A stretch of DNA of 49,912 nucleotides from Candidatus Woesebacteria bacterium RBG_16_42_24 (GTDB taxonomy: Bacteria; Patescibacteriota; Microgenomatia; UBA8517), in contig MGFX01000001.1 of NCBI GenBank assembly GCA_001792115.1, positions 188,694-238,605 on the forward strand, written 5' to 3'. The translations under genes and the position numbers were made by a program. The notes beneath the pieces are model-generated. The model was given only the letters and a program-made list of their open reading frames with translations, was not told where the DNA came from and searched no databases. Position 1 is the stretch's first letter. Each line of letters opens with the position of its first letter. Shown in pieces: positions 3,717 to 48,329 of this stretch.

Positions 3717-3954
3717 CATCCTCCCCGCCCTAAAGAGCGGGGGTATCCCTCCAAAGGAGGATGATATATCAGGTGAATAACCAACGCCCAGCGTTGTCAA
3801 TTCCTCCACGGATTGAAATCCGTGGTATCCTTGAAACTGTTATGACATTCTCCATGGACTAAGAGCCCACAGTTTCACTTTTGAAAGAGAATGACATATC
3901 AAGTTCAATTCCTCCGTGAGCTGAAAGCTCACGGTTTCCTTGAAATTGTTATGA
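3713..3954. mobile_element. Two tandem non-autonomous hairpin mini-elements (IS200/IS605-end or REP-like) bounded by ATGA
   Basis: ATGA at 3713, 3842 and 3951 bound units of 125 and 105 bp that share TCAATTCCTCC-stem-GGTWTCCTTGAAAYTGTT; the stems covary. Confidence 0.65.
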
Positions 3955-4808
3955 GGCAAGAGACTAAAAGAGATTTTACACTCTATTACCACGACATTTT
4001 TGAATACCCGCTAACGGACGAGGAGGTTACTGTCTGGCAGCCTGGCAAAAAACTTGGGGGAGAATTGAAAAAACGAGTTGAGACTGAGAAAAAGGGAGGG
4101 TATTCATTTTTAAAAGGTAAAGGGAGACTCGTGGAGGAGAGGCGGGAAAGAGAGAGCATCAGCAAAAGAAAAATTGAAATGGCAAAAAGGGGTGTTGGGT
4201 TTATCTCGACAATTCCCACGGTTAAGATGGTCGCCCTTACAGGGGCCCTGGCAATGAGTAATGCCAAGGTGGATTCCGATATAGACATTTTCATTATTTG
4301 TAAGGGGGGAACACTTTGGGCGACGAGGATGTTTACGATTTTTCTACTGGATATTTTTGGAATTCCCAGAAACGCTGGAGGCAAGGTCGATAAAGATAAA
4401 CTCTGCTTGAATATGTGGTTGGATGAGCGCGATTTAATCTGGGGCAGGACAGATAGAAATTTTTATACAGCTCACGAAATCGCCCAGATTATTCCTCTTG
4501 TAAACAAAAGAGGGACCTACGAGAGGTTTATCTTTGTTAATAGGTGGATTAAGGATTATTGGCCCAATGCAGTCAAGATACTAAGTGAAGAAGATACTAA
4601 GATACTTGTGGGGAAGAGCAAAAAAAATCACTTAATATCTAAGTATCTTAGTATCCTAGTATCTTTGCTATTCGAGCCGATTGCCTTTCGGTTGCAGTAT
4701 TTCTATATGAAGTCGAAGATCACCCGTGAGGTCGTAACTCCCACCCGGGCAATTTTTCATCCCCGAGACTGGGGAAAAATCGTGATGAAACGACTAACCC
4801 AGGTTTAG
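3951..4808 (+). CDS. Nucleotidyltransferase-fold (Pol beta-like) protein
   Basis: VALTGALA...SDIDIFII motif (G-x...D-x-D); the upstream 60 nt of the tracked ORF are repeat sequence, so the start is placed at 3951. Confidence 0.72.
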   Translation: MRQETKRDFTLYYHDIFEYPLTDEEVTVWQPGKKLGGELKKRVETEKKGGYSFLKGKGRLVEERRERESISKRKIEMAKRGVGFISTIPTVKMVALTGALAMSNAKVDSDIDIFIICKGGTLWATRMFTIFLLDIFGIPRNAGGKVDKDKLCLNMWLDERDLIWGRTDRNFYTAHEIAQIIPLVNKRGTYERFIFVNRWIKDYWPNAVKILSEEDTKILVGKSKKNHLISKYLSILVSLLFEPIAFRLQYFYMKSKITREVVTPTRAIFHPRDWGKIVMKRLTQV

Positions 4809-7327: not shown

Positions 7328-7936
7328 ATGATGGCGAGTAATATTTGGAAAGATGCTCAAAAATTTCTCTTCAAGGATAAATATATAGGGAGTTTGATTA
7401 AAAAGTATGGTTCTTGCAAAATAAGACCCAGGGCCAAAAAGTATTACTTCGAAGACCTTATTGATGCAATAGTCGGCCAGCAGCTTTCCGGCAAGGCCGC
7501 AAAGACGATTTTTGAAAGAGTAAAGGCAAGGTGTGAAGGAAATATTACTCCAGATAAACTTATTAAACTAAGAACCGAGGAACTAAGAAAATGCGGGCTA
7601 TCTTATGCAAAGTGCTCTTATGTAAAAGATTTGGCGGAAAAAGTTAAAAGTTCAAAGTTAAAAGTTAGAATTTTGGATAAACTTTCGGACGAAGAAATAC
7701 TTAACGAGTTAATTGCGGTCAAAGGAATAGGGAAGTGGACGGCAGAAATGTTTCTGATGTTCACACTTGCCCGTCCGGACGTGTTTCCGGTGGACGATTT
7801 GGGGATCGGAAAGGGAATGCAAAAATTACTCAGAAGGAAGATTAAATCCCTAAATATGGCTAAATACGCGGAACGTTGGAAACCCTATCGTACAGCCGCC
7901 GCATGGTATATTTGGAAGGTTGTCGATAGCAAGTAA
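7328..7936 (+). CDS. alkA: DNA-3-methyladenine glycosylase II (HhH-GPD)
   Basis: AIVGQQLSGKAA, VKGIGKWTAEMFLMF, DVFPVDDLG, WKPYRTAAAWYIW. Confidence 0.92.
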   Translation: MMASNIWKDAQKFLFKDKYIGSLIKKYGSCKIRPRAKKYYFEDLIDAIVGQQLSGKAAKTIFERVKARCEGNITPDKLIKLRTEELRKCGLSYAKCSYVKDLAEKVKSSKLKVRILDKLSDEEILNELIAVKGIGKWTAEMFLMFTLARPDVFPVDDLGIGKGMQKLLRRKIKSLNMAKYAERWKPYRTAAAWYIWKVVDSK

Positions 7937-10367: not shown

Positions 10368-11306
10368 ATGAGGAAGATAAGAACGATAATCTTAATCCTT
10401 TTAGGATTTGGAATTTTGACCGGCGCTGGATTGGCTCTATTGGGTTATCTTAGAAGCGGAAATGCGGGGCTTCTCGTTGAGTCAATACCTTCCTCTTCAG
10501 TTTATATCGCCGGCGAACAGGTAGGCCGTACTCCGTATGAGGCAAATCTCGATCCGGGTGAAGTAGTTGTGAAGTTGATCCCCGACGCAACCGATCGGGC
10601 ATTAGCCCCATTTGAGACAAAGGTAACATTGAGTTCTGGAATAAAAACCAATATCAGAAGGGAATTTGGGGAGACGGAAGAAACCTCTGTCGGCGAGATT
10701 GTTTCTTTTGAGAAAATTGGAGGTAAAGAGGTGAGCATTTCGGTAGTAACAACTCCAAATTCAGCCCAAATATCAGTCGATGGAACCGTCCGAGGTTTTG
10801 CCCCTTATAAAACCACCTCTATTACCCCAGGAGAGCATTCGTTGGTTATTTCTTCCCAGGGATATATCGATAGAACGATTACAGTTAAAGCGACAATTGG
10901 ATACAGATTAACGATTGTTGTTAAGCTTAAACCCAGTGAGGAGGCAGAGCCTCCTGAAGAAATAGAAGGGGAGGCGGTTGAAAAGAAGGTAATGGTTGAA
11001 ATATTATCCACTCCGACCGGGTTTCTGAGGGTTAGGGAAGCAGCCTCAACCGCGGCTAAAGAATTGACACAAGTAAAGCCGGGCCAGAGATTTCCATTTG
11101 TTGAAGAAGATACCGAGAATAACTGGTTTAAAATTGAATACCTGCCTGCGCAGGCAGGCGAAGAAGGAAAAGAAGGTTGGGTAACCGGCCAATATGCTAA
11201 AAAGGTTGAAGTTGAGCCGACAAAGGCGGCAAGTCCGTCAGCTACCCTCACCCCAACCAAAAAGCCTACGCCAACCCCGACACTAGTCCCTTCAGTTACT
11301 CCTTAG
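10368..11306 (+). CDS. Secreted/anchored PEGA-domain plus SH3b-domain protein with Thr-Pro tail
   Basis: N-terminal TM, two PEGA-like repeats (VYIAGEQVGRTPY; ISVDGTVRGFAPY), TGFLRVRE...WFKIEY...EGWV SH3b motif. Confidence 0.82.
   Translation: MRKIRTIILILLGFGILTGAGLALLGYLRSGNAGLLVESIPSSSVYIAGEQVGRTPYEANLDPGEVVVKLIPDATDRALAPFETKVTLSSGIKTNIRREFGETEETSVGEIVSFEKIGGKEVSISVVTTPNSAQISVDGTVRGFAPYKTTSITPGEHSLVISSQGYIDRTITVKATIGYRLTIVVKLKPSEEAEPPEEIEGEAVEKKVMVEILSTPTGFLRVREAASTAAKELTQVKPGQRFPFVEEDTENNWFKIEYLPAQAGEEGKEGWVTGQYAKKVEVEPTKAASPSATLTPTKKPTPTPTLVPSVTP
11141..11158. repeat. 18-bp perfect palindrome in frame inside the SH3b domain
   Basis: CCTGCCTGCGCAGGCAGG encodes LPAQAG. Confidence 0.85.
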
Positions 11307-21547: not shown

Positions 21548-21649
21548 TCGGGTTCTCGGTTATCAGAGCTCGGTTCATCGGTTTTTCGGTTTTATGATCC
21601 GATTAACTGATTATCTGATATCTGACAGCTGAACAACTGATAAGCTGAT
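21548..21649. repeat. Intergenic array of degenerate 7-8 nt units in two inverted halves
   Basis: TCGG/TCAG-core units 21548-21592 followed by CCGA/CTGA-core units 21597-21649. Confidence 0.75.
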
Positions 21650-21984
21650 TATTTTCTCAGAAAATATATCTCTAAAGCAATTAAGACTCCAATGATTAAC
21701 AAAAGATTTAGGACATTACCGACACCGAAATAACGAAGAATAAGAAATATTGTAATCGCAACCGCGAAAATTACCCCGCGTCGGGTACTAACAAAGAGGA
21801 AAGAAAAGGTAAAAAGAAGGGCCAGAAAAACCAAAATAAAAAATGCCGGAATTGCACCGAGGGCAAATGGGTCGACAAAATATATAAGGCCGGCCAAAAG
21901 CGTCCACAGAACGATTGTTATTAAGAGAGTAGGAAAGAAATTTTTTCTTAGTTTTACTTCCTTCTGGCGGGCATCCTTGCGCAT
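21649..21984 (-). CDS. Small polytopic membrane protein
   Basis: Four hydrophobic helices; start moved to ATG 21984 (TATCAT-N6-ATG), which removes the overlap with rmuC. Confidence 0.72.
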   Translation of the reverse strand: MRKDARQKEVKLRKNFFPTLLITIVLWTLLAGLIYFVDPFALGAIPAFFILVFLALLFTFSFLFVSTRRGVIFAVAITIFLILRYFGVGNVLNLLLIIGVLIALEIYFLRK

Positions 21985-25056: not shown

Positions 25057-27987
25057 GTGGTAAAGAAAAAAATTGAGGACAAGAAATTTAATAAAGAGCA
25101 AATTGAGGCAATTAAGTATGGAAATGGTCCACTTCTTATTATTGCAGGGGCGGGGACGGGCAAAACCACAGTTATCACCGAGAGAATTAAATACCTCATT
25201 CTTTCCAAGAAAACCAAACCCGAAGAAGTTCTCGCTTTAACCTTTACAGAAAAAGCAGCTAAAGAAATGGAGGAAAGAGTGGATGTGGCAATGCCTTATG
25301 GTTATACACAAATGTGGATAAGTACCTTCCACTCCTTTTGCGATCGGGTGCTAAGGCGGGAGGCGCTCCACATTGGCCTTGACCCCAAATATCACCTGGC
25401 GACCGAGGCAGAGACGGTTCAGTTTATTAGAAATAATCTTTTTAAATTTGATCTCGAATACTTTAGACCCTTAGGCAATCCCACGAAGTTTGTTGGAGGA
25501 ATGTTGCAACACTTTTCAAGGCTTCAGGACGAAGATGTGACACCCAATCAATATATTGATTGGGTGAACTTAAAACCCAAAACTCAAAACTCAAAAGTTT
25601 CGCAAGAAGAGAAGACAGAACTTAAAAAATGGAAAGAACTAGCCCGAGCATACAAGACCTACGACGAACTAAAAACAAAGGAGGGTGTGATGGATTTTGG
25701 GGACCTGATAGTTAAAGCCCTGAAACTTTTTAAAAGTAGGCCAAATATTTTGGGACAGTATCAGAAACAATTTAAGTATGTTTTGGTCGATGAATTCCAG
25801 GACACTAACTACGCGCAAAACGAATTGGCAATTTTACTTGCAGGGAAAGGTAACCTGCCTGCCGGCAGGCAAGGAAATATTACTGTCTGTGGGGACGATG
25901 ACCAGTCAATATATAGATTCCGTGGCGCCGCAGTTTCAAACATTATTCAATTTAGAAAGAATTTTCCAAAATCAAAGATTGTTGTTCTTACCAAGAATTA
26001 TCGATCCACACAAGAGATTTTGGATAGGGCATATCAGCTTATTCAACATAATAATCCGGATAGACTCGAGGCGGTCGAAAAAATAGACAAGAAGTTAGTA
26101 TCCCAAGTTGAAAAAGAGGGCAAAGAAATAAGTTTTATTCATGCGGATAGGGTAGAGAATGAAGCGGATGTGGTTGCCAAAGAAATTAAAAAACTCAAAG
26201 AAGATGGGGGCTACGAGTGGAAAGATTTCGCAATTTTGGTAAGGGCCAATAATCATGCGGAACCTTTCGGCAGAGCTCTCGCGCGGCACGCAGTTCCGTA
26301 CCAATTTCTTGGGCCAGGGAGACTTTTTAAGCAATCCGAAGTGGTCGACCTTATTTCTTATCTCAGGGTTCTTTATAACCTGGAAGATTCTGTTTCATTT
26401 TATAGGCTACTAGCAATTGATTATTTTGATATTAACGCACGCGATCTTGCGACAATCGGAAATAGCTCAAGAAAATTAAATAAAACTTTTTTCGAGGTAT
26501 GCGAGAATATCGACAATCTTTTTGTATCGAAAGAGACAAAAGAAAAAGTCAAAAAGATTTTAGAAATAATTGGAAGGCACTTAAAACTTGTTAGACGCGA
26601 AACAGCGGGGCAGCTCCTTTATTATTTTCTCTCCGACACGGGACTTATGCAAAAAATGCTTTCGCCCGACTCCGCCGAGGCGGAAAAAAAAGCGACAAAT
26701 ATTTCCAAATTTTTCGACAAACTGAAAACCTATGAGGTGGACCACGAGGACGCGACCGTTCCTGCGGTAGTTGATTGGCTGGAATTATCTTCCGAGCTAG
26801 GGGAGTCACCCTTGGCGGCAGATGTCGATTGGGTTAATGTAAATGCGGTTAACATTCTGACTGCTCACTCCGCAAAAGGCTTAGAATTTCCGGTCGTATT
26901 TTTAGTGAACTTGGTTGGCCAAAGATTTCCAACAATTGAAAGAAGGGAACAAATTCCAATCCCAGACGCACTCATAAAGGAGGTTCTGCCGGTCGGCGAT
27001 TACCATTTGGAGGAAGAAAGGCGGCTTTTTTATGTGGGGATGACGAGAGCTCGGGATATTCTTGTCTTTAGTGCGGCCGATTATTACGGGGAGGGTAAAA
27101 GAGAAAAAAGGCTGTCCCCTTTTATTTTTGAGTCGCTTGGAGATTCGGCTGTTTCAGCCGAACAAACACCCGAAAGCGGTCAACAGTTAAGCTTTCTGGA
27201 TTACCGACCGATTGCCGCCGAATTAACGAATCAACGAATTAACAAATCACGATTACATATCGACTACTTGTCCTACTCCCAAATCGAAACCTTTAGGATT
27301 TGTCCCTTACATTACAAATTAAAATATATTTACAAAATTCCCACTCCACCTTCTTCCTCACAAAGCTTTGGGAACAGTTTCCATGCGACAATGAAAGCTT
27401 TTTACGAGGCCTTAGTGAGAAAAGAAAAACCTTCGGAGAAACTAATGTATAGGGTTCTAAAGGAAAACTGGATAAGCGAGGGTTATCTAAATGCTAGACA
27501 CGAGGAGGGGTCGTTTGAAAAAGCCAAAAGATTTTTAAAATATTATTTGAAAAATACTTTTGACCCGAAAATTTCACCCATTTCTATGGAGCAGCCTTTT
27601 GTTGTTCGGCTCGACGGCCTTCGGGTCGGTGGAAAGATGGATAGGGTGGATGTGCATAAAGATGTGCTAGAGATAATCGACTACAAAACCGGTGCAAATC
27701 CGCTCCCCCAAAAAGAAGCAGATAAGGATTTGCAACTTTCCATTTACGCCCTTGCGGCAACCTCTATCCCGGAATTTCCTTTTGCCAGGGTTCCGGAAAA
27801 GGTGAAACTCTCGCTATATTATTTTGACACTCCGCAAATTGTTTCGACAACTAGGACGAAAGAGCAATTGAAAGAAGCAATAAAAATTATCGAGGATTAT
27901 AAAAGGCAAATTGAACACTCGGACTTTAGATGTTCACGCGGATTCCTTTGCGAAAACTGCGAATACTCATTTTTGTGTAGGACCTGA
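25057..27987 (+). CDS. UvrD/Rep-family helicase fused to a C-terminal PD-(D/E)XK nuclease with four Cys
   Basis: AGAGTGKT, DEFQD, GDDDQSIY, HSAKGLEF, EERRLFYVGMTRA; nuclease GKMDRVD...IIDYKTG, QLSIY; CPLHY...CSRGFLCENCEYSFLC. Confidence 0.92.
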   Translation: MVKKKIEDKKFNKEQIEAIKYGNGPLLIIAGAGTGKTTVITERIKYLILSKKTKPEEVLALTFTEKAAKEMEERVDVAMPYGYTQMWISTFHSFCDRVLRREALHIGLDPKYHLATEAETVQFIRNNLFKFDLEYFRPLGNPTKFVGGMLQHFSRLQDEDVTPNQYIDWVNLKPKTQNSKVSQEEKTELKKWKELARAYKTYDELKTKEGVMDFGDLIVKALKLFKSRPNILGQYQKQFKYVLVDEFQDTNYAQNELAILLAGKGNLPAGRQGNITVCGDDDQSIYRFRGAAVSNIIQFRKNFPKSKIVVLTKNYRSTQEILDRAYQLIQHNNPDRLEAVEKIDKKLVSQVEKEGKEISFIHADRVENEADVVAKEIKKLKEDGGYEWKDFAILVRANNHAEPFGRALARHAVPYQFLGPGRLFKQSEVVDLISYLRVLYNLEDSVSFYRLLAIDYFDINARDLATIGNSSRKLNKTFFEVCENIDNLFVSKETKEKVKKILEIIGRHLKLVRRETAGQLLYYFLSDTGLMQKMLSPDSAEAEKKATNISKFFDKLKTYEVDHEDATVPAVVDWLELSSELGESPLAADVDWVNVNAVNILTAHSAKGLEFPVVFLVNLVGQRFPTIERREQIPIPDALIKEVLPVGDYHLEEERRLFYVGMTRARDILVFSAADYYGEGKREKRLSPFIFESLGDSAVSAEQTPESGQQLSFLDYRPIAAELTNQRINKSRLHIDYLSYSQIETFRICPLHYKLKYIYKIPTPPSSSQSFGNSFHATMKAFYEALVRKEKPSEKLMYRVLKENWISEGYLNARHEEGSFEKAKRFLKYYLKNTFDPKISPISMEQPFVVRLDGLRVGGKMDRVDVHKDVLEIIDYKTGANPLPQKEADKDLQLSIYALAATSIPEFPFARVPEKVKLSLYYFDTPQIVSTTRTKEQLKEAIKIIEDYKRQIEHSDFRCSRGFLCENCEYSFLCRT
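25854..25874. repeat. 21-bp palindromic element in frame in the helicase
   Basis: CCTGCCTGCCGGCAGGCAAGG encodes N-LPAGRQ-G. Confidence 0.85.
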
Positions 27988-28030: not shown

Positions 28031-28270
28031 ATGACAAGCGTATCCATTACTGACCTGAAGACAAAACCAGCCTCGGTTATTTTAGCTTCGGAGGATTATC
28101 CTGTTGCAATTAAAAGTAGAGAGAAGACCAAAGCCTACCTTGTAGGCAGAAGCCTTTTTGAGAAGATGATTGCGTACATTGAGGATGTTGAGGACGTTAA
28201 AGCTGTTGAGAAAGCAGATTTAAGCAAGGCTACAGATTTTGAAGAATTTGCCAAAGAGCTGGGGATATGA
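28031..28270 (+). CDS. Phd/YefM-family antitoxin
   Basis: VSITDLKTKPASVI...PVAIKSREKTKAYLV N-terminus, acidic C-terminus, ATGA overlap with the toxin. Confidence 0.8.
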   Translation: MTSVSITDLKTKPASVILASEDYPVAIKSREKTKAYLVGRSLFEKMIAYIEDVEDVKAVEKADLSKATDFEEFAKELGI

Positions 28271-28539
28271 ATCTTAAGATTATTCCTCAGGCGAAAAAGC
28301 AAATCAGAAAACTTTCTAAAACTACCCAAATTATAGTTGGCAACAAGATAAGACAACTGGGAACAGGAAACTTTAGCAATTCCAAAAAACTGGCTTCCTA
28401 TAAGGATGTTTTTAGGATTAGATTGGGTGATTATCGGATTGTTTATATCCTTAGATCAGATAGTGTTTATATAATCCTAGTTACACACAGAAGAGAAGCT
28501 TACAAAAAGCTTGCTATTTATTACAAACATTTTAAATAG
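28267..28539 (+). CDS. relE: RelE/ParE-family toxin
   Basis: AKKQIRKL, FRIRLGDYRIVY, HRREAY. Confidence 0.88.
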   Translation: MNLKIIPQAKKQIRKLSKTTQIIVGNKIRQLGTGNFSNSKKLASYKDVFRIRLGDYRIVYILRSDSVYIILVTHRREAYKKLAIYYKHFK

Positions 28540-28801: not shown

Positions 28802-29043
28802 CGAGGATATTCTGTTAATAATTTCTGGAGGTATGCCAATAGGGGGGCTCGCCAATCATCCTCGAGTTGAGTTTTGGCCATCTCAACTACTTTTCTATCC
28901 GAGATTGAAAGATTAAGTTTTTCTAATTTTCTGCAAAGGTCGAGGATTTGAAAATCGCCTAATTCGTCAAATATATATCTTCTTTTTTCTTCTTCTGTTA
29001 CATCAAAATCTTTGAATAGTTTATTTTTCTCTTCGTCTGTCAT
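28798..29043 (-). CDS. Small hypothetical protein
   Basis: 81 aa, translationally coupled at both ends within the operon. Confidence 0.65.
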   Translation of the reverse strand: MTDEEKNKLFKDFDVTEEEKRRYIFDELGDFQILDLCRKLEKLNLSISDRKVVEMAKTQLEDDWRAPLLAYLQKLLTEYPR

Positions 29044-29864
29044 TGGCTAAATGGTAGCAGATTTTTTACAAAAGTTCCCGGATAGGAAACTTCGTACCCC
29101 CCAGAGGATTTTTTGAAATGGGTAAAACCCTGCCAGCTTTTATTGGGAAATCGTTCATCAAAAATTCCTTCAAAATCAAACATTTTGGCCCCTTTAGTTT
29201 TTGCCCAGAGGATTCCATCCCAAACAATTTTATACTGAGCCAATTCCTTTCTGCCCTCTTTGTTAGTAAATGCCTGCCAATAATATGCCAACCCATCTCC
29301 AATCAAGAAAATCGCTCCGGCGGAGGAATTATTGGTTGTTAAAAATAGAGCCTTGTCCTTAAAAGAATTCTTAAGGGCAAGAAGGTGGGTCAGCGGGGGG
29401 ACATAGCGTTTCATCCCAACGGATTTTTTCCAACTTTCCCGAAACTTTTTTAAATCTTTGAGCTCTTTTGTCTCTAGGTTCTCTGTTTTTTTAATTGCAG
29501 TACGGGCATCTTTTTTCATCCCCATAATAAGTTGTTTCGCTGATTTTGTCAGGTCCAAAAGGAGTGTTTTTGTGGGAAGATAGGGAGACTTACTTAATTT
29601 AAAACCAACAGAGGTTAAGAATTTTGCGTCCAACTGGGTCCTCGGTTCTACAATTATTTGGAAAGCATGATATTTTGTACTTAATTTCTTAATATCGTTA
29701 TATCGTATCTCCTCCGGCCTCTGAACTTTTAAGACAGATCCAAGTAAGGGAATTTTTTTGATGAAGTAATTAATCTCGGCTATCCTTTCAACTTCCCAGC
29801 CGATTTTTGATAAATATTTTGCATACTGGAGTGCTTGTCTTATATCTATCATTTTCAGTTTCAC
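29040..29864 (-). CDS. FemAB/FemX-like peptidoglycan bridge formation protein (GNAT)
   Basis: QALQYAKYL...GW, MKKDARTAIKK, MFDFEGI, GFTHFKKSSGG. Confidence 0.8.
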   Translation of the reverse strand: MKLKMIDIRQALQYAKYLSKIGWEVERIAEINYFIKKIPLLGSVLKVQRPEEIRYNDIKKLSTKYHAFQIIVEPRTQLDAKFLTSVGFKLSKSPYLPTKTLLLDLTKSAKQLIMGMKKDARTAIKKTENLETKELKDLKKFRESWKKSVGMKRYVPPLTHLLALKNSFKDKALFLTTNNSSAGAIFLIGDGLAYYWQAFTNKEGRKELAQYKIVWDGILWAKTKGAKMFDFEGIFDERFPNKSWQGFTHFKKSSGGYEVSYPGTFVKNLLPFSQ

Positions 29865-29919: not shown

Positions 29920-30954
29920 CTAGAAACTTGGTTTGACGAATTTACTTTTGGCGCGAAGAACTATCCAACGAATGGATTCGACGACTCGATAAGCATAATA
30001 AAGAGGTTTATTTATAACCAAGTCCCAGGTTCCCAAGAATTCTACAACCTTAGGGCTATACCCTTCTTTAAACCGGGTAAAGCCTTTTCCTTCCTCGCGA
30101 CCCCAGAGGTCAAAAGTTTTAAGTCCCAAAGATTTCCCAAAACGTATTGCCTCCCACATAATTAGATTGTTTGCCATGACGTTTTTGTATTTTTCGGTTG
30201 ATGCACCGTAAGGATAGTAAAGGAAATCTTTCCAAACAAAAACAATCCAAGTGGTAATTATTTGGCCTCCTCGCCCGCCATCGCTACGCTCAGGCGTTGC
30301 GGGCGGGTTATATCTTGCGACAAGAAGTCGGGCTATTGGAGTTTTTGAGTTTTTGAGTTTTTGAGTTTTATGTAAATACTTCCACATCAGCCGGTGGTAT
30401 TTTTCGGAATGGGCGTAAAAACCTTGACGGATAACTGTTTCGCGGGTAAGTTTGATATATTTTTCAAATGCTTTCTCGGAATTATCCTCCACAACTTCGA
30501 CTCCATTTTTCTGGGCGAGTCGGATGTTATAACGGGTCTTGGGATTAAAGCTTTTTAAAAGTTCTTCTTCTGGTTTGGTTAAATCAATCCAAAAAGTAGT
30601 TGGGGTAAATAGGGTTTTGCCAGGAACGCAGCCATTTTCGCGGAGAAGTTTAGTTAATTTATTCTTCGTTAATTCGTTCGGAGCTACATGGTTGGGTTCA
30701 AGTTTTATAAAAATCAAATTTTCGTCTTTTGCGAGTTTTTTTAATTCGTTAAGCGCCTCTTTTGTAGGAGCAGGCCCCTTTTCAAAAGCGGCTATCTTAT
30801 AAGGAAGAAATGGAATTTTATGAAGAGTTAGTTGTCCGAAGGGAAGCCTTACCACTTCGTTTCCCCAGGCTTTTCTAAACTCTCCCCATTCCCAAGTTTG
30901 AAGTGGGTGGGACGCGACATTATTTAAGACCTCTGGTGATATTTGGTCAGCCAT
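29920..30954 (-). CDS. FemX/FemAB-family lipid II:amino acid ligase
   Basis: HPLQTWEWGEFR, KTRYNIRLAQKNGV, YYPYGAS, MWEAI, FDLWG, GFTRFKEGY; start moved to 30954. Confidence 0.92.
   Translation of the reverse strand: MADQISPEVLNNVASHPLQTWEWGEFRKAWGNEVVRLPFGQLTLHKIPFLPYKIAAFEKGPAPTKEALNELKKLAKDENLIFIKLEPNHVAPNELTKNKLTKLLRENGCVPGKTLFTPTTFWIDLTKPEEELLKSFNPKTRYNIRLAQKNGVEVVEDNSEKAFEKYIKLTRETVIRQGFYAHSEKYHRLMWKYLHKTQKLKNSKTPIARLLVARYNPPATPERSDGGRGGQIITTWIVFVWKDFLYYPYGASTEKYKNVMANNLIMWEAIRFGKSLGLKTFDLWGREEGKGFTRFKEGYSPKVVEFLGTWDLVINKPLYYAYRVVESIRWIVLRAKSKFVKPSF
30269..30307. repeat. 39-bp hairpin element in frame in the FemX-like gene
   Basis: Minus strand CCCGCCCGCAACGCCTGAGCGTAGCGATGGCGGGCGAGG; related copy at 48137-48174. 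Confidence 0.85.
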
Positions 30955-30977
30955 GTCTATATGATACACTGGAAGGG

Positions 30978-31606: not shown

Positions 31607-33466
31607 TCAAAAGTTTATATCGTCGAACTCTCCCAAACTTTTTAATAATCTATCTGTTCCTGTTCCTTGAAGAAGAGTTTCCGGAATATCAATTATAAAC
31701 CGACTAGGGGGATTTGAAATCTTTTCCCCGAAGTAAAGTCTACGGGTGGCGTAGGAAAGATACAAAAGATTTTTGGCCCGGGTTATTCCTACATAAGCCA
31801 AACGCCTTTCTTCTTCGAGTTGGCTTGAGTCCCAAAGAGAACGGGAATGGGGGAAAAGCCCTTCTTCCATTCCGACGATGAATACAACGGGAAATTCGAG
31901 ACCCTTGGCCGCATGTAGAGTCATCAAGGTGACCGCGTCACGTCGTGATACGTGATTCGTATTTTGTGATTTGAATTGTTCCGTCTCGACAAGTGCAACA
32001 TTTTCCAGAAATTCGTTGATATTTGGAAACTCCGTTGCGACCGAGCGGAGTTCTTTAATGTTTTCGAGTCTCGCCAAGTTTTCCTCGGTTTCTTTTTGAT
32101 AAAGGTCCAAGTACCCAGTTTTCTCTAAAACTATGTCCAATAAATCGAGGGTTGTGAAGCTTTCCAGGTTTTCTATTTCTTCTTTCAGGCTTTTAAACTT
32201 CTCGATCCTTCTCACTCCCAATTTTTCAATTCTTCTTTTGGCTACAGTGTCTTTAGGGTTAATCAGGAGTCTTAGAAAAGAAAGAACGTCTTTAATTTCT
32301 TTGCGGCCGTAAAATCTGACGCCACCAACCAAAAGGTAAGGGATTCCAGAGTGAAGCAGCGCTTCCTCCAAAACACGAGATTGGGCATTAGTTCTATAAA
32401 GAACAGCAATATCTTGAAAAGTGATTGGTGATTGGCGACTGGTGATTAGTGATTGAATTTCGCCCACGACAAAACTTGCTTCATCCAAGCCATTACGAGC
32501 TGTATAGAGTTTTATTTTTTCTCCTGCACCTTTTAACGTCCAAAGTTTTAGAATCGGGTGGGTTTTGTTTTTGGAAATAACCGAATTTGCTGCACTTAGA
32601 ATGTTTTGGGTGGAGCGGTAATTTTGCTCAAGATTAATAATTTTAATGTCGGGGAAGTCTCGAACTAAATAGTTTATATTTCGGTAGTCCGCTCCTCGCC
32701 AGGAATAAATTGATTGTGAAGCATCCCCCACGGCAGTTATATTTTTTCCTCTCCCAACAAGTAATTTTGTCAGAGCATATTGGATTTTGTTTGTGTCCTG
32801 CCATTCGTCGACGAAAATATGAGTTAGCTTTTCCTGCCATTTATTAAGTACTTCGGGAACTTCCTTGAAAAGCTCGACAGTCTTAATAAGAAGGTCGTCA
32901 AAGTCCAGAGCCCCCACTTCTTTTAGGGCTTTTTCGTAAGCGACGTAGACCTTAAAGACCGTTTCACCCCAATCACCGGGGGCAAGTTCTGCGTATTGGG
33001 TCGGTGAAAGCATTTGATTTTTGGCATCAGAGATTTCCCCTAAAATTGCAGCGGGATTATATGAGTCGGTGGACAGGTTAAATTCGCTAAGAATCTGTTT
33101 TACCATCTCCTTTGAGTCATCCTCGTCATAGATTAAAAAACTTGGGTAAATTCCGATATGCTTCCCGTCGATTCTTAAAATTTTTGCGCAGAAAGAGTGG
33201 AAGGTTCCAGAATAGGGCGGGGTAGAGCCGGTCAGGGACGCAATTCTTTCCTTCATTTCTCCGGAAGCTTTATTGGTAAACGTTAACAGAAGCGCATTTT
33301 CTGGTTTAAGAGTCTTTTCGGCAATAAAATATGCAACCCGGTGGGTTAAAACTTTAGTTTTGCCGCTACCCGCTCCCGCCAAGACTAGAAGTGGTCCCCC
33401 GATATAAGTTACGGCTTTAACCTGCTCTTTATTTAAGCTGGAAAGTAGCTTGTTTCCCTTTTGCAT
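31607..33466 (-). CDS. pcrA: ATP-dependent DNA helicase PcrA/UvrD
   Basis: AGAGSGKT, DEWQD, GDASQSIYSWRGA, LEQNYRST, YRTNAQSR, HAAKGLEF, EERRLAYVGITRA. Confidence 0.96.
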   Translation of the reverse strand: MQKGNKLLSSLNKEQVKAVTYIGGPLLVLAGAGSGKTKVLTHRVAYFIAEKTLKPENALLLTFTNKASGEMKERIASLTGSTPPYSGTFHSFCAKILRIDGKHIGIYPSFLIYDEDDSKEMVKQILSEFNLSTDSYNPAAILGEISDAKNQMLSPTQYAELAPGDWGETVFKVYVAYEKALKEVGALDFDDLLIKTVELFKEVPEVLNKWQEKLTHIFVDEWQDTNKIQYALTKLLVGRGKNITAVGDASQSIYSWRGADYRNINYLVRDFPDIKIINLEQNYRSTQNILSAANSVISKNKTHPILKLWTLKGAGEKIKLYTARNGLDEASFVVGEIQSLITSRQSPITFQDIAVLYRTNAQSRVLEEALLHSGIPYLLVGGVRFYGRKEIKDVLSFLRLLINPKDTVAKRRIEKLGVRRIEKFKSLKEEIENLESFTTLDLLDIVLEKTGYLDLYQKETEENLARLENIKELRSVATEFPNINEFLENVALVETEQFKSQNTNHVSRRDAVTLMTLHAAKGLEFPVVFIVGMEEGLFPHSRSLWDSSQLEEERRLAYVGITRAKNLLYLSYATRRLYFGEKISNPPSRFIIDIPETLLQGTGTDRLLKSLGEFDDINF

Positions 33467-47973: not shown

Positions 47974-48040
47974 CAACCGACTGCAAAAAACGATCTATTC
48001 CGCTGGCGCCAGCAAACCCGAGCGAATATCCTTTTGGGCA

Positions 48041-48174
48041 GTGCTGAGCGGAGTCGAAGTACTTGACCCATTCGACTAAAGCTCGGGGTCGACGCCCCAC
48101 CCATTCGCTCTTCGAGCCGTTTACGGATAGTACTGACCACGTCCGCATCGCGTACGCGAAGCGTTTCGGGCGGG
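48041..48174. repeat. Composite intergenic repeat cluster (REP-like hairpin, 40-bp dispersed element and CCCGCC-family element)
   Basis: 48041-88 resembles 46156-220; 48095-134 matches the reverse complement of 8614-53 at 34/40; 48137-74 resembles 30269-307. Confidence 0.75.
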
Positions 48175-48202
48175 AAAGGTAAGAAGTATGAATGTGTGGG
48201 GC

Positions 48203-48239
48203 TTGACATCTTTTAGCACTCGTGATAAGTTACTGCTAA
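48203..48239 (+). promoter_or_regulatory. hrcA promoter overlapped by CIRCE
   Basis: TTGACA 48203, 17-nt spacer, extended -10 TGaTAAGTT; TTAGCACTC-N9-TACTGCTAA at 48213-48239. Confidence 0.88.
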
Positions 48240-48329
48240 AGTAGCAGGGTATAGTGCAGAGCGCATAGTACATAGATTTTCTCTATGCACTATCAACTAA
48301 TTACTAACCACTGCGAGAGAAACGAGCTT

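What the first reader, a model, noticed from the sequence alone, without database searches (positions are those of the whole stretch)
30269..30369. FemX-like gene carries two different in-frame repeat elements 30 bp apart
A 39-bp hairpin element adds 13 aa, and its removal gives ARYKGQIITTW. An 8-nt x4 array (KTQKLKNSKT) lies just upstream in the protein. Two independent elements in one region suggest a permissive surface and a local insertion hotspot.
Basis: partly seen in the sequence, partly recalled or inferred. Interest (0 to 1): 0.7.

Follow-up and report, generated by a model that had tools for sequence, protein, structure and literature searches.

The report
Tiny hairpin element inside FemX gene
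A cell-wall enzyme gene of a Woesebacteria-like bacterium carries, in two neighbouring surface loops, a translated 39-base GC-rich hairpin element and an 8-base tandem array; the hairpin belongs to a near-identical family found inside housekeeping genes, tRNA genes and promoter regions in many bacterial phyla, and I found no description of it.

Summary
Both observations are real. A 39-nt GC-rich quasi-palindrome (30269-30307) is a seamless in-frame insertion: orthologues without it read ARYKGQIITTW. A perfect (AAAAACTC)x3.9 array (30339-30369) encodes KTQKLKNSKT.

The hairpin is not private to FemX. A near-identical 36-39-nt element occurs in Patescibacteria, Verrucomicrobiota (including Akkermansia MAGs), Bdellovibrionales and other phyla. 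It sits in-frame in aaRS, UvrB, Fpg, TsaD, RadA-like, ScpB, sulfatase and kinase genes, inside a tRNA-Val, and beside rRNA/tmRNA genes. Three filled/empty comparisons show no target duplication.

In FemX it is patchy: 10 of 120 orthologues, not clustered by relatedness. Its bases are 90-95% identical between orthologues, against about 40% identity at fourfold sites.

The array adds nothing relative to most orthologues. It fills a hypervariable loop of 0, 7 or 8 extra residues, which in other orthologues holds different 7- or 8-nt arrays or another GC hairpin.

Hairpins lie next to 7/8-nt arrays more often than chance (11 observed, 2.9 expected within 50 nt), so the two features may not be independent.

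Best reading: a non-autonomous palindromic mini-element plus a slippage array, both tolerated in loops. The mobilising enzyme is unknown. No description was found in the literature.

The parts
29920..30969 (-). FemX/FemAB-family gene (349 aa) that hosts both features
   Evidence: ORF. Pfam FemAB 2.6e-24 and Acetyltransf_6. 6176 homologues, the closest named Woesebacteria/Patescibacteria FemA/FemB/FemX. AlphaFold pLDDT 81.9 and Foldseek matches to 6SNR, 1NE9 and 1LRZ.
30269..30307 (-). 39-nt GC-rich quasi-palindromic element. Sense strand: CCCGCCCGCAACGCCTGAGCGTAGCGATGGCGGGCGAGG. It is translated as (N)PPATPERSDGGRG, residues 221-234.
   Evidence: Exact 39-nt gap against the orthologues in L003, L005, L006 and L007. 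DNA fold z = -3.7 to -4.5. Covariance model hit of 56 bits, E = 7e-11. Word depth of 364-790 against about 7 for the flanks in community contigs.
30339..30369 (-). Octamer tandem array (AAAAACTC)x3.9 on the sense strand, with an imperfect extension from 30336. It encodes KTQKLKNSKT, residues 201-210.
   Evidence: Tandem Repeats Finder: period 8, 100% matches, score 62. Codons. Word depth 207-223 against about 6, and contigs break here. The antisense strand can never be read, because it carries TGA in every frame.
30308..30338 (-). 31-nt spacer encoding the conserved strand PIARLLVARY between the two variable loops
   Evidence: A213, A218 and Y220 are invariant, and I212, L215 and L216 nearly invariant, in 35 orthologues. 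Strand 213-220 in the model.
48138..48174 (-). Second, intergenic copy of the hairpin family, of the 36-nt TTC-loop type and slightly decayed. It lies about 30 nt upstream of a TTGACA/TAAGTT promoter-like pair and a CIRCE-like operator in front of hrcA.
   Evidence: Pattern hit. Sequence. Covariance model 50.9 bits, E = 1e-9. HrcA confirmed by Pfam. The promoter and CIRCE motifs were read by eye.
29040..29864 (-). Downstream FemAB paralogue (context; carries neither feature)
   Evidence: Pfam FemAB 1.5e-5. The same gene pair is present in L003, L006 and L007.

Best explanation
The 39-nt segment is a copy of a very small, non-autonomous, GC-rich quasi-palindromic dispersed element of 36-39 nt. 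It entered the FemX gene seamlessly, between the second and third base of a Lys codon. That codon lies in the turn of a beta-hairpin.

The element's length is a multiple of three and the reading frame it occupies has no stop codon. It is therefore simply translated as a 13-residue Pro/Gly/Ser/Arg-rich surface loop, and the enzyme tolerates it.

The element family spreads or persists at the DNA level. Copies survive only where they do little harm: protein loops, linkers and tails, tRNA variable or T-arm regions, leaders, and DNA next to promoters.

The neighbouring octamer array is a microsatellite-like product of strand slippage in a second, hypervariable loop. Only gains or losses of three units (24 nt, 8 aa) keep the frame. 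This explains the array of about 4 units and the 0/+7/+8-residue length classes among orthologues.

Shown: the insertion and its exact borders, family membership, loop location, patchy distribution, base-level conservation, and the association with arrays.

Inferred: mobility as a single-stranded hairpin handled in trans by an HUH/Y1-type (RAYT or IS200/IS605-like) or comparable enzyme that inserts and excises without a footprint; translation of the insert; neutrality for FemX.
For: Seamless 39-nt filled/empty pair in FemX. Two further seamless pairs in tRNA-Val genes, GTCACA|GGTTCG and GGTAGA|GCGCT.

The same element (24 copies share the identical 36-mer; 31 variants in total) occurs on large contigs of many phyla, in both orientations.

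In-frame copies lie inside IleS/ValS-like aaRS, UvrB, Fpg, TsaD, RadA-like, ScpB, sulfatase, radical-SAM and Ser/Thr-kinase genes. For Fpg and TsaD the insert falls in gaps relative to solved homologues.

Frame use fits stop avoidance. The 36-nt type is read as PARNASRSDAGG, and its frame 2 has TAG. The 39-nt type is read as PPATPERSDGGRG, and its frame 0 has TGA.

No shared neighbouring gene was found among 63 loci, so the element is non-autonomous.

In FemX, 10 of 120 orthologues carry it and they are not clustered: mean distance 0.317 against 0.299 for random sets, and nearest relatives usually lack it.

The element is 35-37/39 identical between orthologues, against 0.37-0.45 identity at fourfold sites elsewhere in the gene.

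The model places both features in loops.

Orthologues carry other 7/8-nt arrays at site 1: AAAACTCC x4.5 (L006) and AAATCCC x4.1 (L004). A CCAATCA-type heptamer is inferred only from the PITNHQSP peptides, without DNA. L246 carries a different GC hairpin there.

Arrays of period 7 and 8 outnumber periods 6 and 9 in these genomes.
Against: No transposase or other mobilising enzyme was identified, and no conserved target motif was seen.

About 13% of copies have flanking direct repeats of variable length, 4-8 nt, against 2.3% expected. This does not fit a footprint-free Y1 mechanism, unless those copies sit inside tandem arrays, as L123 and L074 do.

All 10 FemX copies share subtype, orientation and exact site. 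That needs either site-specific insertion or one old insertion followed by many seamless losses, and neither was demonstrated.

Near-identity across phyla is hard to explain for a purely selfish element. It hints at a constraint that I have not identified.

The genome scan selected copies by a pattern, so the apparent conservation is partly due to ascertainment.

No RNA or protein data show that the insert is translated.
Confidence: 0.65

Rival explanations
1. The hairpin is a functional cis-acting DNA or RNA site: a palindromic binding site for a protein conserved across phyla, or a structural signal such as a terminator, insulator or replication/segregation site. Selection on its base sequence keeps it, and the coding copies are compromises.
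For: 24 copies from different phyla share the identical 36-mer. Orthologous copies keep their bases and even subtype-specific variants while the flanks diverge: L018/L116, L053/L121 and FemX. Copies abut the -35 box of an rRNA promoter in L054, the 5' end of tmRNA in L122, tRNA genes, and the hrcA upstream region in the window. Compensatory changes keep the inner stem in L004 and L247.
Against: Copies occur in both orientations, in unrelated proteins, and inside a tRNA T-stem. Within FemX the element is present in under 10% of orthologues and is visibly decaying in some, such as P0024 and P0072. Compensatory changes in quasi-palindromes can also arise from template-switch correction without selection (established knowledge). 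No consistent spacing to genes was seen.
Confidence: 0.2
2. The hairpin and the 7/8-nt arrays are two products of one process. For example, a single trans-acting enzyme (a polymerase, reverse transcriptase or nuclease) makes short tandem copies at the same lesions or sites where hairpins are inserted. On this view the two FemX features are mechanistically linked, not independent.
For: Hairpins have an array within 50 nt in 11 cases against 2.9 expected, with a maximum of 8 in 500 randomisations. Hairpins sit inside heptamer arrays in L123 and L074, and arrays form inverted pairs around or beside hairpins in L064 and L060. Fpg (L126) and TsaD (L112) carry hairpin plus arrays in one inserted loop. 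Arrays of period 7/8, not 6/9, dominate in hairpin-bearing genomes.
Against: A shared restriction to permissive DNA (intergenic regions and loops, roughly 10-20% of a compact genome) could by itself give a 3-5-fold enrichment. FemX orthologues have an array without a hairpin (L005, L006) and a hairpin without an array (L001, L002). (AAAAACTC)n arrays occur in every kind of metagenome.
Confidence: 0.25
3. The octamer array is a contingency (phase-variation) locus. Gain or loss of one 8-nt unit shifts the frame and switches FemX off or on.
For: The unit length is not a multiple of 3, the array is perfect, and a FemAB paralogue lies directly downstream and could back up the function.
Against: There are only about 4 units. 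No length variant appears in contigs of four metagenomes that hold this genome, although contigs drop rare variants. Similar arrays sit in helicase and glycosylase genes of the window and in essential genes elsewhere. Orthologues show in-frame length classes of 0/+7/+8 aa and no truncated genes.
Confidence: 0.07
4. The 13-residue segment is an ordinary lineage-specific protein loop selected at the protein level, or it is an assembly artefact.
For: It is in-frame, and the peptide is conserved in several orthologues.
Against: Third codon positions are conserved at 12-13 of 14, while the rest of the gene is saturated. The same bases occur in unrelated genes, in other frames and orientations, in tRNA and in intergenic DNA of other phyla. 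The insert is seen in independent assemblies from ENA, JGI, Logan and NCBI.
Confidence: 0.03

Closest known systems
Rickettsia palindromic elements (RPE; Ogata et al. 2000, from my own knowledge; mentioned in PMC1779305)
   Same: Palindromic selfish DNA inserted in-frame into housekeeping protein genes. It is translated as an extra surface segment, is also found in RNA genes and intergenic DNA, and has no transposase of its own.
   Different: RPEs are about 100-150 bp and confined to Rickettsia. This element is 36-39 nt, and the same sequence is found in many phyla.
REP/REPIN elements mobilised by RAYT (Y1/HUH) transposases (PMC3116915)
   Same: A GC-rich imperfect palindrome of 20-40 nt, many copies per genome, non-autonomous, with a footprint-free mechanism expected. 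The element contains a GTAG tetranucleotide.
   Different: REPs are extragenic and species-specific, and their GTAG lies at the foot of the hairpin. Here copies are intragenic as well, the sequence is shared across phyla, GTAG is internal, and no RAYT was looked for or found.
Cyanobacterial small dispersed repeats (SDR, 21-27 nt; Elhai et al. 2008, cited in PMC3116915 and PMC4390886) together with STRR heptamer arrays (PMC2670836)
   Same: Very small dispersed hairpin-forming modules inserted precisely (SDR5 inserts within HIP1, PMC4390886). They coexist with tandem 7-bp repeats that can form hairpins and whose origin is unknown (PMC2670836). This is the same pairing of tiny hairpins and heptamer arrays seen here.
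   Different: A different sequence, different phyla, and a different length (36-39 against 21-27 nt). I could not read the 2008 paper, so details of the SDR-STRR association rest on my memory.
GC clusters and 'byp' elements of yeast mitochondrial genomes (PMC8811140, PMC7194472; details from my own knowledge)
   Same: Short GC-rich palindromic mobile elements in AT-rich genomes that land inside protein-coding genes.
   Different: They are organellar. Byps are skipped by the ribosome, whereas this element is in-frame and stop-free, so skipping is not required. Whether it is translated was not tested.
Coiled-coil arm of S. aureus FemA/FemX (1LRZ, 6SNR)
   Same: A large lineage-specific insertion in the same segment between the conserved blocks. 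Query residues 201-249 correspond to chain residues 222-315. This shows that this part of the Fem fold accepts extra structure.
   Different: It is a roughly 60-aa helical arm evolved as protein, not a repeat element. Exact equivalence of the insertion point is inferred, not shown.

Membership tests
FemAB / FemX aminoacyl-tRNA-dependent peptidyltransferases (host gene) | Pfam FemAB (PF02388) match above the curated threshold | tested here: met
   86.2 bits against a cut-off of 24.
FemAB / FemX aminoacyl-tRNA-dependent peptidyltransferases (host gene) | Tandem GNAT-like fold similar to solved FemX/FemA structures | tested here: met
   Foldseek: 6SNR E = 3.7e-20, 1NE9 E = 4.4e-15, 1LRZ E = 6.3e-14. 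phmmer against 6SNR gives 2.1e-17.
FemAB / FemX aminoacyl-tRNA-dependent peptidyltransferases (host gene) | Transfer of an amino acid from aminoacyl-tRNA to a peptidoglycan precursor | not testable with these tools
   Needs a biochemical assay.
REP/REPIN (RAYT-mobilised) | Imperfect palindrome of 20-40 nt present in many copies | tested here: met
   The 36-nt quasi-palindrome folds at -18.5 kcal/mol. There are 2 copies in the 50-kb window, several genomes have multiple hits, and word depth in community contigs is about 50-100 times that of the flanks.
REP/REPIN (RAYT-mobilised) | Extragenic location | tested here: not met
   There are in-frame copies in at least 10 different protein families and in tRNA.
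REP/REPIN (RAYT-mobilised) | Sequence specific to a species or genus and co-inherited with a RAYT gene | tested here: not met
   The same 36-mer occurs in several phyla. Presence of a RAYT gene could not be tested, because whole genomes were not available. None of the 63 loci shares a neighbouring gene family.
Rickettsia palindromic elements | In-frame insertion in protein genes with the host protein still functional | tested here: inconclusive
   In-frame insertion was shown. Retained function is only implied by intact ORFs in essential genes.
Rickettsia palindromic elements | Element of about 100-150 bp with RPE consensus sequences, in Rickettsia | tested here: not met
   The element is 36-39 nt and occurs in other phyla.
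MITE (transposase-derived miniature inverted-repeat element) | Terminal inverted repeats plus a target-site duplication of fixed length | tested here: not met
   Three filled/empty pairs have no duplication. Elsewhere the flanking repeats are absent or of variable length, 3-8 nt.
IS200/IS605-type (Y1) hairpin elements | Insertion without duplication, 3' of a fixed tetra- or pentanucleotide | tested here: inconclusive
   No duplication was found, which fits. The three empty sites are TATAA|AGG, GTCACA|GGT and GGTAGA|GCG. They share only A|(A)G, and no fixed motif appears across 69 copies.
Self-splicing or bypassed intervening sequence | Removal from the RNA, or a ribosomal hop, so that the insert is not in the protein | not testable with these tools
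   No RNA runs hold the gene. Rfam finds nothing at the element. The insert is in-frame and stop-free, so removal is not needed.
Simple-sequence contingency locus | Unit-number polymorphism within populations that switches the reading frame | tested here: inconclusive
   No length variant appears in contigs of four metagenomes, but contigs hide rare alleles.
STRR-like short tandem repeats | Tandem arrays of 7-bp (here 7-8-bp) units dispersed in the genome, often able to pair as inverted arrays | tested here: met
   Ten arrays of period 7/8 in the 50-kb window. Inverted pairs at 4575/4631 in the window and in L060 and L064. The STRR family was defined in cyanobacteria (PMC2670836), so this is a likeness, not shared descent.

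The most novel reading that the evidence does not exclude
The 36-39-nt quasi-palindrome is an undescribed, cross-phylum family of ultra-small elements. It colonises housekeeping proteins in-frame, tRNA genes and promoter-proximal DNA in Patescibacteria, Verrucomicrobiota (including Akkermansia), Bdellovibrionota and others. It is mechanistically coupled to the heptamer/octamer arrays that litter the same genomes. On this reading it is a bacteria-wide counterpart of the cyanobacterial SDR/STRR pairing. Its near-invariant sequence would then reflect recognition by one conserved trans-acting enzyme that inserts and excises it without a footprint.
Probability: 0.4. Interest if true: 0.85.

Novelty: new variant of a known kind. 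Interest (0 to 1): 0.72.

Why it matters
Selfish palindromes translated inside proteins are known essentially from Rickettsia. Tiny dispersed hairpins paired with heptamer arrays are known from heterocystous cyanobacteria.

Here one 36-nt sequence shows both behaviours across distant phyla. This includes the reduced genomes of the Candidate Phyla Radiation, where every inserted residue sits in an essential gene, and Akkermansia-like gut bacteria. Whether any cultured Akkermansia strain carries it is untested: every carrier found was a MAG.

Three things follow if the family is real.
- It marks permissive sites in conserved enzymes such as FemX, Fpg, TsaD, UvrB and aaRS.
- It breaks assemblies of these genomes, because contigs end at both features.
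- It poses a sharp question: which enzyme can move or maintain a 36-nt hairpin seamlessly in such different hosts?

It also warns annotators that 'lineage-specific loops' in CPR proteins may be repeat-derived.

Tried and rejected
- My first hairpin pattern used a 19-nt loop and missed the FemX copy itself, whose loop is 20 nt. It did reveal the second copy at 48140.
- The repeat finder on the whole window did not list either feature.
- Rfam found nothing at the hairpin or in the GC-rich hrcA upstream region.
- I considered whether the element derives from rRNA or tmRNA. Only 7-11-nt chance matches were found.
- I looked for a neighbouring transposase. All-against-all BLAST of ORFs from 63 loci gave no shared family.
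- Carriers: no match in PLSDB plasmids, GenBank phages or E. coli genomes, and one IMG/VR contig.
- Literature: searches for the DNA or RNA sequence, for the encoded peptides and for descriptive terms gave nothing relevant. Elhai 2008 is not held in the library.
- No RNA runs hold the gene.
- The metagenome scan for (GAGTTTTT)3.4 showed that this array is a generic microsatellite found in all environments. Its length distribution is uninformative because the pattern sets the minimum length.
- The RNAalifold and minimum-free-energy structures disagree on the register. I did not settle which helix matters.
- Flanking direct repeats looked like target duplications at first. They are variable in length, and at least some reflect insertion into tandem arrays.
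Full report
**The observation**

The finding lies in a 349-aa gene on the minus strand, 29920-30969. The gene matches Pfam FemAB at 2.6e-24. Its AlphaFold model (pLDDT 81.9) matches solved FemX and FemA structures: 6SNR at 3.7e-20, 1NE9 and 1LRZ. Its closest relatives are named Woesebacteria, Microgenomates or Patescibacteria FemA/FemB/FemX. A second FemAB paralogue follows at 29040-29864.

Other neighbours were confirmed by Pfam:
- a PcrA/UvrD helicase
- an AddA-like helicase-nuclease
- a Phd/YefM-ParE pair

Both described features are present at the stated coordinates.
- The hairpin is + strand 30269-30307, 39 nt and 76% GC in a region of about 40% GC. Its DNA fold has z = -3.7 to -4.5.
- The array is 30339-30369, period 8, 3.9 copies and 100% matches. 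It encodes KTQKLKNSKT.

**The hairpin is a seamless insertion**

I took the DNA of eight orthologues and aligned it by codon. The empty site is TAT AAA GGC CAA. In the window it reads TAT AA[CCCGCCCGCAACGCCTGAGCGTAGCGATGGCGGGCGAGG]A GGC CAA.

This is exactly 39 nt with no target duplication. It turns K into N221 and adds P222-G234.

In the structural model the peptide is the turn (221-235) between strands 213-220 and 236-246. The array covers the end of helix 189-205 and loop 206-212.

S. aureus FemX aligns as query 31-201 to chain 41-222, and query 249-343 to chain 315-413. It therefore has about 45 extra residues in this same segment. From the FemA literature (my own knowledge) I infer that these are the coiled-coil arm.

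**Distribution in FemX**

Ten of the 120 closest orthologues carry the insert or a decayed form of it. Examples are NPPATPERSDGGRGG, NPPSHKASEGQGR and NPGRNPPALPEQSDGG.

These ten are not clustered by relatedness.
- With both variable sites masked, their mean pairwise distance is 0.317, against 0.299 +/- 0.011 for random sets.
- Apart from one trio and one pair, each has insert-free nearest relatives.
- All ten share the same site, orientation and 39-nt subtype.

Between orthologues the element is 35-37/39 identical, and 12-13 of 14 at third codon positions. Fourfold-degenerate sites elsewhere in the gene are only 37-45% identical. L004 and L247 show compensatory changes in the inner stem.

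This leaves two readings that I cannot separate:
- the element enters this site repeatedly from a conserved pool
- one old copy is kept similar to the family and is lost seamlessly many times

**The family**

I scanned one genome per GTDB species with a degenerate pattern.

About half of the hits are chance matches in high-GC genomes that lack the 3' arm. About 65 are true copies, in which the bases outside the pattern are also conserved. Twenty-four copies share the identical 36-mer CCCGCCCGCAACGCTTCGCGTAGCGATGCGGGCGGG.

Hosts, many on contigs of 0.1-1.3 Mb, include:
- Patescibacteria: Moran-, Davies-, Giovannoni-, Gribaldo-, Komeili-, Falkow-, Doudna- and Saccharibacteria, and Paceibacterota
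- Verrucomicrobiota, including MAGs labelled Akkermansia muciniphila
- Bdellovibrionales
- Margulisiibacteriota
- Chloroflexota
- Kiritimatiellia
- Terriglobales

The 36-mer is an almost perfect palindrome with A.A and T.T mismatches. It folds at -18.5 kcal/mol, z about -5, on either strand. One strand contains GCGAAGC, known as an unusually stable DNA mini-hairpin (my own knowledge).

The FemX copy belongs to a 38-39-nt subtype (CTGA loop, one extra G, one bulge). The same subtype is seen in L027, L052, L082 and L112. The window holds one further copy, of the 36-nt type, at 48138-48174 upstream of hrcA.

In groundwater and sediment metagenomes that contain this genome, word depth over the hairpin is 364-790 against about 7 for the flanks. 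Contigs end there. The subtype is therefore highly multi-copy in the community.

**Where copies sit**

In-frame copies lie in real housekeeping genes:
- a class-I aaRS (L039, with a decayed tandem copy)
- UvrB (L080, antisense, read as PARIATRSVAGG)
- Fpg (L126)
- TsaD (L112)
- a RadA-like ATPase (L013)
- ScpB (L027)
- a radical-SAM enzyme (L078)
- a sulfatase, just after the signal peptide, in two Akkermansia-like genomes (L018, L116)
- a Ser/Thr kinase linker (L053, L121)

Against solved homologues, the Fpg and TsaD copies fall in insertions of about 44 and 56 residues.

Frame use follows stop avoidance. The 36-nt type is nearly always read as PARNASRSDAGG, and its third frame has TAG. The 39-nt type is read as PPATPERSDGGRG, and its first frame has TGA.

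In Verrucomicrobia the element sits in the T-stem/variable region of a tRNA-Val. An intact copy in the same locus gives a second seamless pair, GTCACA|GGTTCG. The loop has opposite orientation in two genomes. A third seamless pair comes from L094, GGTAGA|GCGCT.

Other copies abut a TTGACA -35 box of an rRNA operon (L054) and the 5' end of tmRNA (L122).

- No gene family is shared by the neighbourhoods.
- There is no match in plasmids, cultured phages or E. coli.
- One IMG/VR contig holds a copy.

**The array**

Site 1 is a hypervariable loop.
- About a quarter of orthologues have a short form (LKPAGIA).
- Most have 7-9 extra residues of unrelated sequence.
- Several have repeat-derived versions: (AAAACTCC)x4.5 in L006, a (TCCCAAA)-type heptamer in L004, and PITNHQSP-type heptamers (the last inferred from peptides only, without DNA).
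- P0091 carries a different GC-rich hairpin of about 57 nt there.

The +7 and +8 residue classes fit gains of three 7- or 8-nt units, the only changes that keep the frame. This is an inference.

The array therefore does not lengthen the protein relative to most orthologues. (AAAAACTC)n is a generic microsatellite found in all kinds of metagenomes. It is never readable on the opposite strand.

What is unusual is the genome. The window has ten arrays of period 7 or 8 with at least 2.9 copies. They include arrays in the AddA-like, PcrA/UvrD and HhH-GPD genes. In hairpin-bearing low-GC loci, periods 7 and 8 (25 and 9 arrays in 176 kb) far outnumber periods 6 and 9.

**Are the two features independent?**

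Across 65 loci, 11 of 70 hairpins have an array within 50 nt. The expected number is 2.9, and the maximum was 8 in 500 randomisations.
- Hairpins sit inside heptamer arrays in L123 and L074.
- Arrays form inverted pairs beside or around hairpins in L060 and L064.
- The window has an inverted octamer pair at 4575/4631.

Shared confinement to permissive DNA could explain part of this. A common mechanism cannot be excluded.

The pairing resembles cyanobacterial SDR modules and STRR heptamers (PMC4390886, PMC2670836; Elhai 2008 is cited in PMC3116915 but I could not read it).

**Mechanism and limits**

The anatomy is a single hairpin, inserted without a footprint, in both orientations, with no nearby gene. 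It fits a non-autonomous element handled as single-stranded DNA by an enzyme acting in trans, of the RAYT or IS200/IS605 kind.

Three points stand against this:
- No such enzyme and no fixed target motif were found.
- Variable flanking repeats occur in about 13% of copies.
- Identity across phyla suggests an added constraint, such as recognition by a conserved protein.

No RNA data exist for the gene, so translation of the insert is inferred from frame and length. Searches of the literature for the sequence, the peptides and descriptive terms found no description.

**Verdict**

The 'permissive loops' reading is supported. The 'two independent insertions' reading is only partly supported.

The hairpin is a member of a widespread family that appears to be undescribed. 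I file it as a new variant of the known kind 'selfish palindromic elements tolerated inside genes'.

Noticed in passing
window 47974-48284: The 310-nt GC-rich intergenic region upstream of hrcA holds the second hairpin copy and several further GC-rich inverted repeats, for example around 48040-48120. It also has a TTGACA-17 nt-TAAGTT promoter-like pair and a CIRCE-like TTAGCACTC-N9-TACTGCTAA. There is no Rfam match.
   Followed up: partly
window 4575-4606 and 4631-4665: Two octamer arrays, (AAGATACT)n and its reverse complement, lie 24 nt apart and form a long potential hairpin. They sit inside or at the end of ORF 3891-4808, which has no Pfam match.
   Followed up: partly
window 7639-7667, 25567-25596, 27219-27249, 32421-32455: Heptamer and octamer arrays lie in-frame in an HhH-GPD glycosylase, twice in the AddA-like helicase-nuclease, and in the PcrA/UvrD helicase (QSLITSRQSPIT). 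The AddA array encodes PKTQNSK, the same peptide type as at FemX site 1 in other orthologues.
   Followed up: partly
window 21570-21651: Arrays (TCGGTTTT)x3 and (GATTAACT)x6.6 lie in a stretch where no frame is open, so they are intergenic.
   Followed up: no
window 28031-28539: A Phd/YefM antitoxin and ParE toxin pair lies between the AddA-like gene and the Fem genes (Pfam). It is absent from the syntenic loci L006 and L007.
   Followed up: partly
window 11141-11158 and 25854-25869: Short palindromes CCTGCC-N1-3-GCAGGCAGG resemble the two arms of the hairpin element without its centre. They could be collapsed remnants, but they score at chance level (E about 1).
   Followed up: no
L246 about 940-1010 (FemX orthologue P0091): A different GC-rich hairpin of about 57 nt (CCCTCCGGGCCAGTCTCC...GGAGAGGCCCGTCCGGGCCGGCGG) is inserted in-frame at FemX site 1. 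P0085 has a shorter version. P0073 and P0080 keep only 'SPSGP', possibly a remnant.
   Followed up: partly
L006 10285-10322: A third variable site in FemX, alignment columns 104-141 just after the PN motif, holds an (ATTCAAG)x5.4 heptamer array in orthologue P0037. Other orthologues have insertions of up to about 30 aa there.
   Followed up: no
L014 1280-1700: An intact tRNA-Val(GAC) is followed about 300 nt downstream by a duplicate of only its 3' half, carrying the hairpin. It looks like an attachment-site duplication left by an integrated element.
   Followed up: no
L094 4440-5010: There are three repeated units. Each contains the first 22 nt or so of a tRNA-Val, the hairpin inserted after GGTAGA, and a common tail. 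They lie next to the intact tRNA-Val(CAC).
   Followed up: no
L054 2013-2075: The hairpin directly abuts the -35 box of a consensus TTGACA-17-TACTAT promoter upstream of the 23S rRNA gene. TGACA is repeated on both sides of the element.
   Followed up: partly
L126 4211-4322 and L112 3290-3360: The Fpg and TsaD genes of Patescibacteria carry hairpin plus heptamer arrays together in one inserted loop of 44-56 aa. This is the same architecture as in FemX.
   Followed up: partly
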